Origin: Escherichia coli | GTDB lineage: Bacteria; Pseudomonadota; Gammaproteobacteria; Enterobacterales; Enterobacteriaceae | Direction: 5' to 3' (one strand) | Assembly (NCBI RefSeq): GCF_003334385.1 | Contig: NZ_QOWN01000001.1 | DNA: 64,000 nucleotides | In this document: positions 18,001 to 24,000 of the stretch, piece by piece | How positions within the stretch are numbered: the stretch's first letter is position 1 | How the letters are laid out: each line of letters opens with the position of its first letter | Position numbers: made by a program

Positions 18001-21000
18001 AGAAGTCAATGACGCTTGATATCTCCAATGATAACAAACAACTGCCCTATCTTGCTCAGGCATGGATAGAAAATGAAAATCAGGAAAAAATTATTGCAGG
18101 GCCGGTTATTGCCACCCCTCCGGTTCAGCGCCTTGAGCCGGGTGCGAAAAGCATGGTCAGGCTGAGTACCACACCGGATATCAGTAAACTTCCTCAGGAC
18201 AGGGAATCACTGTTTTATTTTAATCTCCGGGAAATACCGCCGAGGAGTGAAAAGGCCAATGTACTGCAGATAGCCTTACAGACCAAAATAAAGCTTTTTT
18301 ATCGCCCGGCAGCAATTAAAACCAGACCAAATGAAGTATGGCAGGACCAGTTAATTCTGAACAAAGTCAGCGGTGGGTATCGTATTGAAAACCCAACGCC
18401 CTATTATGTCACTGTTATTGGTCTGGGAGGAAGTGAAAAGCAGGCAGAGGAAGGTGAGTTTGAAACCGTGATGCTGTCTCCCCGTTCAGAGCAGACAGTA
18501 AAATCGGCAAATTATAATACCCCTTATCTGTCTTATATTAACGACTATGGTGGTCGCCCGGTACTGTCGTTTATCTGTAATGGCAGCCGTTGCTCTGTGA
18601 AAAAAGAGAAATAATGTACCGCAATAACGGTTAAATGCGGGTGGGATATTATGGTTGTGAATAAAACAACAGCAGTACTGTATCTTATTGCACTGTCGCT
18701 GAGTGGTTTCATCCATACTTTCCTGCGGGCTGAAGAGCGGGGTATATACGATGACGTCTTTACTGCAGATGAGTTGCATCATTACCGGATAAATGAACGG
18801 GGGGGACGCACCGGAAGCCTGGCAGTCAGTGGTGCACTGCTGTCCTCACCCTGCACGCTGGTGAGTAATGAGGTGCCGTTAAGCCTCCGGCCGGAAAATC
18901 ACTCTGCGTCAGCCGGAGCACCTCTGATGCTGAGGCTGGCAGGATGTGGGGACGGTGGTGCACTTCAGCCCGGAAAACGGGGCGTTGCGATGACAGTCTC
19001 CGGCTCACTGGTAACCGGTCCCGGAACCGGAAGTGCTTTACTTCCTGACCGTAAGCTATCCGGCTGTGACCATCTTGTTATACATGATGGTGATACCTTT
19101 TTACTGTGCCGGCCTGACCGGCGGCAGGAGGAGATGCTGACTGCCTGGAGGAAAAGGGCGACACAGGAGGGTGAGTATTCTGATGCCAGGAGCAATCCGG
19201 CCATGCTGCGTCTGAGCATAAAATATGAGTAAGGGAATGTGATGATAAAAAGCACAGGCGCTCTTTTACTGTTTGCCGCACTGTCTGCCGGACAGGCAAT
19301 AGCCTCAGATGTGGCATTCAGGGGTAATCTGCTTGACAGACCCTGCCATGTGTCCGGTGACAGTCTGAATAAACATGTCGTCTTCAAAACCCGCGCGTCC
19401 AGGGATTTCTGGTATCCGCCCGGACGTTCGCCGACAGAGTCGTTTGTCATCAGGCTGGAAAACTGCCATGCAACAGCAGTTGGCAAAATTGTGACCCTGA
19501 CCTTTAAGGGGAGGGAGGAGGCGGCCCTCCCGGGCCATCTGAAGGTAACCGGAGTGAATTCCGGCCGGTTAGGCATTGCACTGCTGGACACCGATGGCAG
19601 CAGTCTGCTGAAACCCGGCGCTTCCCATAACAAAGGCCAGGGGGAAAAGGTTACCGGAAACAGTCTTGAGCTTCCTTTCGGCGCGTATGTTGTGGCAACG
19701 CCGGAAGCCCTGCGGACGAAGAGTGTGGTACCCGGTGATTATGAAGCAACAGCCACGTTTGAATTGACATATCGTTAGCAAAATTTTTGTACAGGATATT
19801 TCAGATGAAAAAGATAAGAGGTTTGTGTCTTCCGGTAATGCTGGGGGCAGTGTTAATGTCTCAGCATGTACATGCAGCTGATAATCTGACCTTTAAAGGA
19901 AAACTGATTATTCCTGCCTGTACTGTACAAAATGCTGAAGTTAACTGGGGTGATATTGAAATTCAGAAGCTGGTACCGAGTGGCGGAAATCAGAAAGACT
20001 TTACCGTCGACATGAACTGCCCCTATAGCCTGGGAACCATGAAAGTTACAATAACATCAAATGGTCAGACAGGTAATTCGATACTGGTGCCTAATACTTC
20101 AACCGCTTCTGGTGATGGGCTGCTCATTTATCTTTACAATAGTAATAACAGTGGTATTGGTAACGCTGTCACTTTAGGGAGTCAGTTTACGCCCGGAAAA
20201 ATTACAGGAACAGCACCAGCCAGAAAGATTACTCTTTACGCAAAACTTGGATATAAAGGAAATATGCAGAGTTTGAGGGCGGGAACATTTTCTGCAACGG
20301 CAACGCTGGTTGCATCATATTCGTAATAGTATCAACTAAAATACGTTAATTTTATATCTCGTAAAATAAAATGTTTTCTGTGCCGCTCTCCGGAGGGGGG
20401 ATGATTCGTTTATCATTATTTATATCGTTGCTTCTGACATCGGTCGCTGTACTGGCTGATGTGCAGATTAACATCAGGGGAAATGTTTATATCCCCCCAT
20501 GCACCATTAATAACGGGCAGAATATTGTTGTCGATTTTGGGAATATTAATCCTGAGCACGTGGACAACTCACGTGGTGAAATCACAAAAACCATAAGCAT
20601 ATCCTGTACGTATAAGAGTGGCTCACCCTGGATAAAGGTCACAGGTAATGCAATGGCTGGGCAGACTAATGTACTGGCAACAAATATAGCCAATTTTGGT
20701 ATAGCGTTGTATCAGGGAAAAGGAATGTCAACACCTCTTACATTAGGTAATGGTTCAGGAAATGGTTACAGAGTGACAGCAGGTCTGGACACAGCACGTT
20801 CAACGTTCACCTTTACTTCAGTGCCCTTTCGTAATGGCAGCAGGACACTGAATGGCGGGGATTTCCGGACCACGGCCAGTATGAGCATGATTTATAACTG
20901 AGTCATACCTAAATGAATAACTGTAATTACGGAAGTGATTTCTGATGAAAAAATGGTTCCCAGCTTTGTTATTTTCCTTGTGTGTGTCTGGTGAGTCCTC

Positions 21001-24000
21001 TGCATGGAATAATATTGTCTTTTACTCCCTTGGAAACGTTAACTCTTATCAGGGAGGGAATGTGGTGATTACTCAAAGGCCACAATTTATAACTTCGTGG
21101 CGCCCGGGCATTGCTACGGTAACCTGGAATCAGTGTAATGGTCCTGGGTTTGCTGATGGTTCCTGGGCTTACTACAGGGAGTATATTGCGTGGGTAGTAT
21201 TCCCCAAAAAGGTTATGACCAAAAATGGATATCCCTTATTTATTGAGGTTCATAATAAAGGTAGCTGGAGTGAGGAGAATACTGGTGACAATGACAGCTA
21301 TTTTTTTCTCAAGGGGTATAAGTGGGATGAGCGGGCCTTTGATGCAGGTAATTTGTGTCAGAAACCAGGAGAAACAACCCGTCTGACTGAGAAATTTGAC
21401 GATATTATTTTTAAAGTCGCCCTACCTGCAGATCTTCCTTTAGGGGATTATTCTGTTACAATTCCATACACTTCCGGCATGCAGCGTCATTTCGCGAGTT
21501 ACTTGGGGGCCCGTTTTAAAATCCCATACAATGTGGCCAAAACTCTCCCAAGAGAGAATGAAATGTTATTCTTATTTAAGAATATCGGCGGATGCCGTCC
21601 TTCTGCACAGTCTCTGGAAATAAAGCATGGTGATCTGTCTATTAATAGCGCTAATAATCATTATGCGGCTCAGACTCTTTCTGTGTCTTGCGATGTGCCT
21701 GCAAATATTCGTTTTATGCTGTTAAGAAATACAACTCCGACATACAGCCATGGTAAGAAATTTTCGGTTGGTCTGGGGCATGGCTGGGACTCCATTGTTT
21801 CGGTTAACGGGGTGGACACAGGAGAGACAACGATGAGATGGTACAAAGCAGGTACACAAAACCTGACCATCGGCAGTCGCCTCTATGGTGAATCTTCAAA
21901 GATACAACCAGGAGTACTATCTGGTTCAGCAACGCTGCTCATGATATTGCCATAAATGGTTTATCCGGAGCCGGATAGAGTGTTGTGGATATCTGGGATG
22001 CCCCGGGAAGTCACCTTTCAGCCACTTCATTTATGGATTATACGCGGCCTGCACTGAGTTACGTCCATGTAGCTCATCTGACGTTCAGCCGCTTTATCTC
22101 GTGCTGTTCTGGTCTCAATACTTCCATGCCGTTGCAATTACCTCTTAAACCATTCCTTACCATTTTCATGTCTTCGATAAGAAATCTTCATCATGCATGA
22201 TCGATTTTGTCGATCGATTCGATCGAATTTTCTCTTTTTACCCTGTCTTTTGCATGGTTTTAAAATAAGCAACCTTCTTTATCGTGCGGGTAAGAACCAA
22301 CGGAGATGATTGAAATGAAAAAGGTTATTGTTGTTTCAGCGCTTGCTATGGCGGGCGTATTTTCAGCCCAGGCTCTGGCTGATAGGGGTAAAACAGGCTT
22401 TTATGTGACCGGTAAAGCTGGTGCTTCGGTTGTGACTCAGACTGACCAGCGCTTCCGTCAGGACTTTGGGGATGATGTTTATAAGTATAAGGGCGGTGAT
22501 AAAAACGATACTGTATTTGGTGCAGGCCTTGCGGTGGGCTATGATTTTTATCAACATTACAATGTTCCTGTGCGCACGGAAGTGGAATTCTATGGCCGCG
22601 GAGCTGCAGACTCCCATTATACACTGGATACATGGCATTCTCCGATGGGGGATGGTGGTCGGGAAGACACACAGAACAGGCTCAGTGTGAATACCCTGAT
22701 GGTGAATACGTATTATGACTTCAGAAACAGCAGTGCATTCACTCCATGGGTGTCTGTTGGACTGGGTTATGCACGGATACATCATAAGGCAACATATACT
22801 GATACCTCCTGGAATAAATCTGGTGAGGTGAGCGATATTTCTGCGTTGCATTACTCGGGATATGATAACAATTTCGCATGGAGCATTGGGGCCGGTGTTC
22901 GCTATGACATAACCCCGGATATCGCTCTTGACCTCAGCTATCGCTATCTGGATGCTGGTAAATCCTCCCTGTCTTACAAGGATGCAGAAGGGGATAAATA
23001 TAAATCAGAGGCTGACGTTAAAAGTCACGACATCATGTTTGGTGTGACTTATAACTTCTGACGACACTGCTCCTGAGCGATAATTACACATATTCAGTAA
23101 TTAAGATATTTATATATCTTCTGCAACTAAACAGAAATACCCTGCAGTAATATACCGCAGGGTTATTTGTTTCACAGGAGATTTATGGTTTTTATTATCT
23201 TATTCCCTTTATAATAATATTACCGATATATTCCGATGAATATCAGAAAACTGTTTTGTCCGGGCAATACACCCCGGATTTTATTGTTTTTATTCTTTTT
23301 TGTTGTTTCTGTCATAACCACAATTGCATGCGGATACACTGAGAAGAATGCCACCGGGAATGTGTTGCTGCTGTTCCTTCTTCTGCTCCTTGCACACAGA
23401 AATACCCTCACATCCATTACAGCGCTGTTATTTCTGTTCTGTTGTGCACTGTATGCGCCTGCCGGTATGACGTACGGTAAAATCAACAACAGTTTTATTG
23501 TCGCGTTGTTGCAGACCACAACTGATGAGGCAGCGGAGTTTACCGGGATGATTCCTGTTTATCATTTTCTGGTCAGTGCCGCGATTCAGGTATTCATGGT
23601 GATTTTCTGGCGAACACACCGCCGTGGTCACCGTAACTGGCTGGCACTGCTGCTGTTCGTATTATGCTCAATAAACAGCTGGCCGTTGCGGATGGTTAAA
23701 GGAACTGTTGTGGGGACAACTGACACATTGCGTGAAATGCAGCGTTATAAACAACTGAATCAGCACGGGGCTGACAACTGGAAAATCCTGCCGGGTGTAC
23801 CGTTGTATGACACGATTGTTATCGTCACTGGTGAGAGTGTGCGCAGGGATTATATGTCGGTATATGGCTATCCCGTGCCAACCACGCCGTGGCTGAATAC
23901 GGCACCCGGTTTATTTATTGACGATTATACCTCGACAGCCTCCAGTACAGTGTCTTCCCTGAGCCGGACACTGATTTATGACTATGAGCAGAACCCTGAT

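What the first reader, a model, noticed from the sequence alone, without database searches (positions are those of the whole stretch)
20945..22305. PapG allele looks class II-like, and the operon lacks papX downstream
The PapG N-terminal region (WNNIVFYSLGNVNSYQGGNVVITQRPQF...) resembles the class II adhesin allele, as far as I can recall it. The 350 bp after papG contains no MarR-like papX/prfX-type gene, only a weak 71-codon ORF, and the next gene is an outer-membrane protein. This gene order differs from pap operons that end with papX.
Basis: partly seen in the sequence, partly recalled or inferred. Interest (0 to 1): 0.4.

Follow-up and report, generated by a model that had tools for sequence, protein, structure and literature searches.

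The report
Class II PapG operon without papX
This is an ordinary class II P-fimbrial adhesin gene (papG-II) that ends a complete pap operon and is followed by the tia invasin gene rather than papX, a layout found in about half of all papG-II-carrying E. coli genomes.

Summary
Both parts of the finding are correct, and both are already known.

**Class II allele.**
- Window 20945-21955 encodes a 336-aa PapG.
- It is 100% identical to the protein NCBI names PapG-II (WP_000758687.1).
- It differs at 4 residues from the solved PapG-II structure 7LHG.
- It is 46.7% identical to PapG-I and 59.6% to PapG-III.
- Published allele II primers match perfectly and predict the expected 190-bp product. Allele I and III primers have at least 6 mismatches each.

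**No papX.** TBLASTN with PapX finds only noise in 21900-22400 and in the whole window.

**The junction.**
- Homology to papX-type operons stops 66 bp after the papG stop, at 22021.
- After 8 unassigned bases, a module shared with tia islands begins at 22030.
- That module is a decayed integrase fragment, tia, a phosphoethanolamine-transferase gene (here a pseudogene), a TPR gene, an integrase and tRNA-Sec.
- The 71-codon ORF straddles this joint and is spurious.

**How common it is.** Of 497 complete E. coli genomes with full papG-II, 235 have papG-II next to tia and 266 have papG-II next to papX. The literature already describes the 11-gene papGII operon, selC-inserted papGII islands, and CFT073's papX-less pap operon.

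The parts
12848..20901 (.). Rest of the pap operon, all genes intact: papI 12848-13081 (-), papB 13495-13809, papA 14017-14583, papH 14653-15240, papC 15299-17809, papD 17895-18614, papJ 18651-19232, papK 19242-19778, papE 19805-20326, papF 20401-20901 (all +).
   Evidence: TBLASTN of the PGAP-annotated proteins of UPEC132 against the window gives full-length hits without stops; ORF list.
20945..21955 (+). papG, class II allele (336 aa): leader 1-20, lectin domain about 21-216, pilin domain about 217-336.
   Evidence: PDB 7LHG 'PapG-II', E = 6.8e-235 with 4 substitutions. 100% identical to WP_000758687.1, named PapG-II. Pfam PapG_N 1-226 and PapG_C 228-336. The exact sequence occurs on at least 1000 public contigs under the name PapG-II.
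21324..21513 (+). In-silico amplicon of the papG allele II-specific primers (190 bp).
   Evidence: Primers taken from PMC3703789 Table 1. Both match with 0 mismatches and the product is 190 bp, as published. Allele I and III primers have at least 6 mismatches anywhere in the window.
21956..22021 (+). 66-bp 3' flank of papG that is shared with papX-bearing pap operons; homology to them ends at 22021.
   Evidence: BLASTN of the papG-papX region of GN04592 against the window is 100% identical for 21844-22021 and matches nothing beyond. The same breakpoint (query position 1077) recurs.
22022..22029 (.). Eight bases (CCACTTCA) at the joint that belong to neither flank.
   Evidence: Side-by-side comparison of the sequences.
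22030..22120 (-). Decayed internal piece of the 3' part of a P4-type (pheV-type) integrase gene; it marks the left end of the tia module.
   Evidence: Homology to pap-less tia islands starts at 22030. PGAP annotates an 'integrase' pseudogene at this position in AH50 and IAI39. The AH50 fragment is 90% identical to residues 361-421 of a pheV integrase. The window's piece matches residues 352-381 at 40% identity, E = 0.006.
21985..22200 (+). The 71-codon ORF; most likely not a gene.
   Evidence: It spans the recombination joint at 22022-22029 and lies antisense to the integrase remnant. It has no NCBIfam hit and is not annotated in any reference genome examined.
22210..22266 (+). Terminator-like hairpin TCGATCGATTCGATCGA with a T-rich tail (22210-22236), followed by a sigma-70-like promoter (22237-22266) upstream of tia.
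   Evidence: Consensus scan only; function is inferred. The intergenic RNA as a whole is not unusually structured (z = -0.99) and has no Rfam match.
22315..23061 (+). tia, an Hra/Tia-family outer-membrane adhesin/invasin (248 aa from the PGAP start; the ORF opens at 22306).
   Evidence: 100% identical to WP_001350744.1, named 'invasion outer membrane protein Tia'. Pfam OMP_b-brl. 64% identical to the outer-membrane protein next to papG-III in UM146, which I take to be Hek because the review PMC7545054 lists Hek on that island.
23236..24738 (+). Phosphoethanolamine transferase gene, here a pseudogene with an in-frame TAG at codon 350 (24283-24285).
   Evidence: Alignment to the intact 500-aa genes of UPEC132 and DA61218. 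The patch 23900-24500 is 99.5% identical to a truncated pseudogene copy in AH50 and about 91% to the intact copies.
25089..26132 (-). Tetratricopeptide-repeat protein gene, part of the tia module.
   Evidence: 100% identical to WP_000999841.1 of UPEC132 and IAI39.
26544..27728 (-). selC-type tyrosine integrase of the island (394 aa).
   Evidence: 99.7% identical to the integrase next to tRNA-Sec in UPEC132.
28028..28122 (-). tRNA-Sec (selC), the insertion site of the island; core genes yicJ and yicI follow.
   Evidence: ARAGORN; Rfam tRNA-Sec, 83.8 bits; synteny with UPEC132 and IAI39.

Best explanation
The segment is the 3' end of a complete, conventional 11-gene P-fimbrial operon (papIBAHCDJKEFG). 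The operon sits on a pathogenicity island inserted at tRNA-Sec (selC). Its last gene encodes the class II tip adhesin PapG-II. From established knowledge, PapG-II has an N-terminal lectin domain that binds Gal-alpha-1,4-Gal globosides on kidney epithelium and a C-terminal pilin domain that joins PapF by donor-strand exchange. The operon has no papX. The pap-specific sequence ends 66 bp after the papG stop codon. There it is fused, across 8 unassigned bases, to a separate module: integrase remnant, tia, phosphoethanolamine transferase, TPR protein, integrase, tRNA. That module also exists without pap at selC in other strains. This papG-II/tia joint is base-for-base identical in reference strain IAI39 and is present in 235 complete genomes, so it is an old, widely inherited recombination joint and not a private deletion. 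Two steps are inferred rather than shown. First, pap transcription probably ends at or before the hairpin at 22210-22236, and tia has its own promoter. Second, this operon cannot itself repress flhDC and motility through PapX when fimbriae are made.
For: Class II: (98-100% identity to PapG-II; 46.7% to class I; 59.6% to class III, with the lectin domain only 38-40% identical to either). (allele II primers perfect, 190 bp). (PapG_N plus PapG_C). (E59, E91, G104, K106, W107, R170 and K172 present in mature numbering). No papX. Junction anatomy. Intergenic region 100% identical to IAI39. Frequency: 235 genomes with papG-II next to tia, 266 with papG-II next to papX, 497 with full-length papG-II. 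Operon intact. Island at selC. Literature: the papGII operon is described as 11 genes papIBAHCDJKEFG, its islands occur at pheV, pheU, selC, leuX and other sites, and tia is listed among the island genes (PMC7686366). Only one of CFT073's two pap operons carries papX (PMC6246914).
Against: Nothing contradicts the identification. Several limits remain. Receptor specificity and expression were not tested and cannot be tested here. The terminator and promoter calls are consensus matches only. Whether the host genome carries a papX, focX or sfaX homologue outside the window is unknown; X-type genes occur in about 1470 of 5426 genomes. The direction of evolution, papX lost or never present, is not resolved.
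Confidence: 0.95

Rival explanations
1. papX was once present at this position and was removed by a deletion. The deletion ran from 66 bp after papG into an older integrase gene that lay to the left of tia.
For: papX-type islands share the right-hand end of the module (truncated phosphoethanolamine transferase, hypothetical gene, TPR, integrase, tRNA). In UM146, a papG-III island has papG, a papX pseudogene, further genes, then an outer-membrane protein (probably Hek) and a phosphoethanolamine transferase, an order from which such a deletion could start. The integrase piece left at 22030-22120 is truncated exactly at the joint.
Against: No genome with the order papG-II, papX, integrase remnant, tia was looked for or seen. 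The left breakpoint (+66) lies within 12 bp of where the X-gene cassette shared with the sfa and foc operons begins (query position 1089). That is an unlikely coincidence for a random deletion. It fits at least as well with +66 to +77 being the true end of the pap module.
Confidence: 0.45
2. The papX-less state is original. The X-gene cassette was added downstream of papG in other lineages, as it was downstream of sfa and foc. In this lineage the operon end was instead joined to a tia islet.
For: The X cassette has a discrete left boundary, shared among the pap, sfa and foc contexts, at query positions 1089-1124. This lies just beyond the pap-specific 66-77 bp flank. The literature treats the papGII operon as 11 genes without papX.
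Against: Class II and class III operons share continuous homology through papG's 3' half into papX (hits H76 and H77, query 625-1891). The papX linkage therefore predates at least some allele exchange.
Confidence: 0.4
3. A degraded papX remnant, or a replacement regulator encoded by the 71-codon ORF, lies in the 350-bp spacer.
For: An open frame of 71 codons exists at 21985-22200.
Against: TBLASTN with PapX finds only noise. The ORF crosses a recombination joint, is antisense to an integrase remnant, has no family hit and is not annotated in any reference genome.
Confidence: 0.02
4. The adhesin is a class I, a class III or an unnamed PapG variant, and is only superficially class II-like.
For: None beyond the shared PapG fold. 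The pilin domain is 92.5% identical to class III.
Against: The lectin domain is 96-100% identical to class II proteins and 38-40% identical to classes I and III and to all unnamed PapG clusters. The primer test agrees.
Confidence: 0.01

Closest known systems
papG-II/tia arrangement of E. coli IAI39 (NC_011750.1, 4792785-4796575) and 234 other complete genomes, for example DA61218
   Same: The order papF, papG-II, 359-bp spacer, tia, phosphoethanolamine transferase is the same. The spacer is 100% identical to IAI39. papG through tia is 100% identical to DA61218.
   Different: In IAI39 and DA61218 the island carries a 1266-bp (421-aa) integrase like the one beside tRNA-Phe in GN04592; the neighbouring tRNA was not checked in either. 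Here it ends with the selC integrase and tRNA-Sec. The window's phosphoethanolamine transferase gene carries a nonsense codon.
selC-inserted papGII island of UPEC132 (NZ_CP040456.1) and three other genomes
   Same: The whole layout is shared: pgtABCP, IS3 remnant, Gp2-like gene, pap operon, tia, phosphoethanolamine transferase, TPR, integrase, tRNA-Sec, yicJ. Identity is 98.7% over 30 kb.
   Different: papE is only 71.7% identical, papA 92.6% and papF 93.4%. The phosphoethanolamine transferase is intact in UPEC132. UPEC132 has an extra sugar-PTS cluster of about 7 kb between yicI and yicH.
[quoted passage not shown]
   Same: The operon is the same, PapG-II is 97.9% identical, and the first 66 bp after the stop codon are identical.
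   Different: These operons continue into papX (a 183-aa MarR-like repressor of flhDC, per PMC6246914) 262 bp after papG, followed by IS66 remnants. The window has none of this.
PapG-II of solved structures 7LHG, 6CD2, 1J8R and 4Z3E
   Same: 336 aa with the same two domains, and the receptor-contact residues are conserved.
   Different: There are four substitutions relative to 7LHG: N31D, S73F, K93Q and T172K (window residue first, precursor numbering). This is natural allelic variation, since the window's exact sequence is itself very common.

Membership tests
PapG class II adhesin | Two-domain PapG architecture (lectin domain plus pilin/chaperone-binding domain) | tested here: met
   Pfam PapG_N 1-226 (E = 8.6e-112) and PapG_C 228-336 (E = 6.1e-56).
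PapG class II adhesin | Lectin-domain sequence of class II rather than class I or III | tested here: met
   Lectin domain is 96.4-100% identical to PapG-II proteins, 40.2% to PapG-I (P0087) and 38.4% to PapG-III (P0071, UM146). PDB PapG-II 7LHG matches at E = 6.8e-235.
PapG class II adhesin | Positive with allele II-specific PCR primers and negative with allele I and III primers | tested here: met
   Primers from PMC3703789. Allele II: 0 mismatches, product 21324-21513 = 190 bp. Alleles I and III: at least 6 mismatches per primer.
PapG class II adhesin | Conserved globoside-contact residues (E59, E91, G104, K106, W107, R170, K172 in mature numbering; the list is from my own knowledge of the 1J8R work) | tested here: met
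   All seven residues are present.
PapG class II adhesin | Preferential binding to globoside (GbO4) | not testable with these tools
   Requires haemagglutination or glycolipid-binding assays.
PapG class II adhesin | Last gene of an intact papIBAHCDJKEFG operon | tested here: met
   All 11 genes give full-length hits without stops.
PapX / 17-kDa MarR-like 'X' regulators at the end of fimbrial operons | MarR-like ORF of about 180 aa within about 300 bp downstream of the adhesin gene | tested here: not met
   TBLASTN with PapX gives best E = 1.3 in the spacer and E = 2.0 in the whole window. The 71-aa ORF has no family hit, whereas genuine PapX hits MarR-type models.
Hra/Tia family outer-membrane adhesin-invasins (the downstream gene) | Beta-barrel outer-membrane protein of about 250 aa, related to Tia, Hek, Hra1 and Hra2 | tested here: met
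   Pfam OMP_b-brl. Identical to WP_001350744.1, named Tia by NCBI. 64% identical to the outer-membrane protein beside papG-III in UM146, presumed Hek from the review's island table. This matches the roughly 65% identity between family members reported in PMC5539235.
Hra/Tia family outer-membrane adhesin-invasins (the downstream gene) | Identity to the experimentally studied Tia of ETEC H10407 rather than to Hra2 | not tested
   No H10407 or Hra2 reference sequence was retrieved; the name rests on NCBI's annotation rule.
tRNA-selC-inserted pathogenicity island | Tyrosine integrase immediately beside tRNA-Sec, with island DNA absent from related genomes | tested here: met
   Integrase at 26544-27728 and tRNA-Sec at 28028-28122. 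The same site holds a pap-less tia islet in about 50 genomes.
tRNA-selC-inserted pathogenicity island | Direct repeat of the tRNA 3' end at the far boundary of the island | not tested
   The left end of the island was not located; it may lie outside the window.

The most novel reading that the evidence does not exclude
Position +66 to +77 after the papG stop codon may be a defined module boundary at which alternative downstream cassettes have been swapped repeatedly: the papX cassette, which is also found after sfa and foc, or the integrase-remnant/tia islet. The tia-linked half of papG-II operons may then differ functionally. They would have no operon-encoded repression of motility, and read-through from pap into tia might co-express an adhesin and an invasin.
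Probability: 0.1. Interest if true: 0.35.

Novelty: already known. Interest (0 to 1): 0.07.

Why it matters
papG-II is the best-established genetic marker of invasive (kidney and bloodstream) uropathogenic E. coli, so typing it correctly has clinical and epidemiological value. Here that amounts to routine annotation. The missing papX tells us only that this operon cannot itself couple fimbrial expression to repression of flagella. That is true of about half of all papG-II operons and of one of the two operons in the model strain CFT073. No open question is advanced by this finding.

Tried and rejected
- **NCBIfam HMMs** contain no PapG model, so they could not type the allele. The PapG-I/-II/-III names therefore came from proteins and genome records as NCBI annotates them.
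- **The first protein search with the window's PapG** did not return a class I protein, because the tool needs shared 5-residue words. A second search seeded with my recalled J96 PapG sequence returned P0087, named PapG-I by NCBI. I cross-checked it against the peptides encoded by the published allele I primers.
- **DNA search in 'distant' mode** found no class I genes. Class III genes matched only in the 3' pilin-domain half.
- **Structured RNA or a riboswitch in the spacer** was rejected. The fold z-score is -0.99, and the only Rfam match above a family's gathering score in 20000-29000 is tRNA-Sec.
- **The idea that the joint is an assembly artefact** was rejected, because the identical joint is present in 235 complete genomes.
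- **The exact source genome** was not found. The best match for 20945-28400 is 99.1%.
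Full report
**Observation**

The ORF at 20945-21955 (+) encodes a 336-aa protein. Upstream lie papI, papB, papA, papH, papC, papD, papJ, papK, papE and papF. All ten give full-length hits without internal stops when compared with the annotated proteins of strain UPEC132. The gene is therefore the last one of a complete 11-gene pap operon.

**Allele class**

Four independent tests agree on class II.

1. Against the Protein Data Bank, the best match is 'P fimbria tip G-adhesin PapG-II' (7LHG). The match runs end to end at E = 6.8e-235 with four substitutions. The next matches are the other PapG-II entries 6CD2, 4Z3E and 1J8R.
2. The DNA is 100% identical to genes that NCBI's pipeline annotates as papG-II in strain DA61218, and the protein is identical to UPEC132's PapG-II (WP_000758687.1). 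The exact protein occurs on at least 1000 public contigs under that name.
3. I computed global alignments to named references:

| Reference | Full length | Lectin domain (21-216) | Pilin domain (217-336) |
|---|---|---|---|
| PapG-II proteins | 97.9-100% | 96.4-100% | 98.3-100% |
| PapG-III (P0071; UM146) | 59.6% | 38.4% | 92.5% |
| PapG-I (P0087) | 46.7% | 40.2% | 53.8% |

   P0087 was retrieved. I verified it by finding the peptides encoded by the published allele I primers.
4. The allele-typing primers printed in PMC3703789 behave as expected for class II. The allele II pair matches with no mismatch at 21324 and 21496, which predicts a 190-bp product, the published size. Every allele I and allele III primer has at least 6 mismatches at its best site in the whole window.

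Pfam finds PapG_N and PapG_C. The residues I recall as contacting globoside in the 1J8R structure (E59, E91, G104, K106, W107, R170, K172) are all present. That residue list rests on my own knowledge.

**No papX**

I took a PGAP-annotated PapX (183 aa) from strain GN04592, where it starts 262 bp after papG-II. As a positive control, this protein hits MarR-type NCBIfam models. TBLASTN against window 21900-22400 with no filtering and a word size of 2 gives nothing better than E = 1.3. Against the whole 64-kb window, the best hit is E = 2.0. There is neither a papX gene nor a degraded remnant.

**What is in the spacer**

- BLASTN of the GN04592 papG-papX region against the window is 100% identical for 21844-22021 and then stops. 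The sequence shared with papX-type operons therefore ends 66 bp after the papG stop codon.
- Homology to tia loci that have no adjacent pap operon (AH50; the selC locus of IAI39) begins at 22030.
- The eight bases 22022-22029 (CCACTTCA) belong to neither side.
- In those pap-less loci, PGAP annotates an integrase pseudogene that lacks its N-terminus and ends at this point.
- The AH50 fragment is 90% identical to residues 361-421 of a pheV-type integrase. The shorter and more decayed piece in the window (22030 to about 22120, minus strand) aligns to residues 352-381 at 40% identity, E = 0.006.
I regard it as spurious.
- A consensus scan finds a hairpin with a T-rich tail at 22210-22236 and a sigma-70-like promoter at 22237-22266, in front of tia. 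These are pattern matches only.
- The spacer RNA is not unusually stable (z = -0.99), and Rfam finds nothing in it.

**Surroundings**

The next gene (22315-23061) is identical to WP_001350744.1, 'invasion outer membrane protein Tia'. It is an OMP_b-brl beta-barrel protein. It is 64% identical to the outer-membrane protein that follows papG-III in UM146, which I take to be Hek because the review PMC7545054 lists Hek on that island. That figure matches the roughly 65% identity between Hra-family members reported in PMC5539235. After tia come:

- a phosphoethanolamine transferase gene (23236-24738);
- a TPR-protein gene (25089-26132, -);
- a 394-aa tyrosine integrase gene (26544-27728, -);
- tRNA-Sec (28028-28122, -), followed by the core genes yicJ and yicI.

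The pap operon therefore sits at the integrase-proximal end of a selC-inserted pathogenicity island.

**How common the layout is**

Among 5426 complete E. coli genomes:

- 497 carry a full-length papG-II;
- 235 carry papG-II and tia contiguously, as in the window;
- 266 carry papG-II and papX contiguously.

These are two standard layouts of similar frequency. The papG-to-tia spacer of the reference pyelonephritis strain IAI39 is identical to the window's at all 363 positions. The selC-located version is rarer. Only four genomes (UPEC132, N50, GN02350, UID2309220036) cover papG through tRNA-Sec, at about 99% identity. About 50 genomes have the same tia islet at selC without pap. IAI39 carries both a papG-II/tia island and a separate pap-less tia islet at selC. 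Recombination between two such copies could have produced the window's arrangement. This is inference.

**Literature**

- Biggel et al. 2020 (PMC7686366) describe the papGII operon as 11 genes, papIBAHCDJKEFG. They report that the islands are inserted at pheV, pheU, selC, leuX and two other sites, and that the four sites other than pheV and pheU each account for 0.5-4% of islands. They list tia, hek and hra2 among the island-borne genes.
[quoted passage not shown] They also state that PapX represses flhDC.

Both halves of the finding are therefore already in print.

**Mechanism and what remains inferred**

It is shown here that this is a class II adhesin gene in an intact operon, that papX is absent, and that the operon end is fused to an integrase-remnant/tia module at a joint shared by hundreds of genomes.

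From established knowledge, PapG-II binds Gal-alpha-1,4-Gal globosides and is incorporated at the fimbrial tip through PapF and PapD.

It is inferred that this operon cannot itself down-regulate motility through PapX. A homologue elsewhere in the genome could still do so, since X-type genes occur in about 1470 of the 5426 genomes.

The direction of evolution is not resolved.

- A deletion that removed papX is plausible. papX-type islands share the right-hand genes, and UM146 shows the order papG-III, papX pseudogene, further genes, outer-membrane protein (probably Hek), phosphoethanolamine transferase.
- On the other hand, the X cassette has its own left boundary at +78 to +113 after papG, shared with the sfa and foc contexts. 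That boundary is only 12 bp beyond the window's breakpoint. It fits equally well with +66 to +77 being the natural end of the pap module, to which different cassettes were later joined.

**Verdict**

The observation and the interpretation are both correct, but the feature is ordinary and already known. Interest is low.

Noticed in passing
window 23236-24738 (stop at 24283-24285; patch 23900-24500): The phosphoethanolamine transferase gene after tia is a pseudogene here, with an in-frame TAG at codon 350. It is intact (500 aa) in UPEC132, DA61218 and IAI39. The 600-bp patch around the stop is 99.5% identical to a truncated, internally stopped copy of the gene in strain AH50 (L003:2726-3326) and only about 91% identical to the intact copies. 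This looks like gene conversion from a pseudogene paralogue.
   Followed up: partly
window 19805-20326 (papE), 14017-14583 (papA), 20401-20901 (papF): Against the otherwise 98.7%-identical island of UPEC132, PapE is only 71.7% identical, PapA 92.6% and PapF 93.4%. PapC, PapG, PapI and PapB are 100% identical. The operon is therefore a mosaic of subunit alleles, which fits the papA/papE variation noted in PMC7686366.
   Followed up: partly
window 32149-32174, compared with L006:31204-38459: Between yicI and yicH, UPEC132 and IAI39 carry a cluster of about 7.3 kb (BglG antiterminator, fructose-type PTS, two aldolases, ROK protein, lyxose isomerase) that the window lacks. The window's host therefore has a different chromosomal background from the closest island matches.
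   Followed up: partly
window 2586-8809: The island carries the phosphoglycerate transport system pgtA, pgtB, pgtC and pgtP, 99.5-100% identical to UPEC132. This system is best known from Salmonella (own knowledge). Its role on a uropathogenic island was not examined.
   Followed up: no
window 9252-10380 and 10806-12505: There is a frameshifted IS3-family transposase remnant. It is followed by an 'inovirus-type Gp2 protein' gene, a hypothetical gene and a small HTH regulator gene, directly upstream of papI. Names are taken from the UPEC132 annotation.
   Followed up: no
window 22190-22236: Upstream of tia there is a run of overlapping TCGATCGA palindromes (ATCGATTTTGTCGATCGATTCGATCGAATTTTC). 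The scan scores part of it as a terminator-like hairpin. It could equally be a regulator binding site; this was not tested.
   Followed up: no
proteins P0003, P0004, P0006-P0013, P0089-P0097 (not in the window): Besides classes I-III, the protein database holds many further E. coli PapG-like clusters. The seven I aligned to the window's PapG have lectin domains only 33-40% identical to it, and some have class II/III-like pilin domains (92%). Most are named only 'PapG carbohydrate binding domain-containing protein'. Their receptor specificities are presumably unknown.
   Followed up: no
L008 (IAI39 selC locus) and L009 (IAI39 papG-II locus): IAI39 carries two identical tia genes (WP_001350744.1). 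One follows papG-II and one lies in a pap-less islet at selC. Such duplicated modules provide homology for moving the pap operon between tRNA sites.
   Followed up: partly
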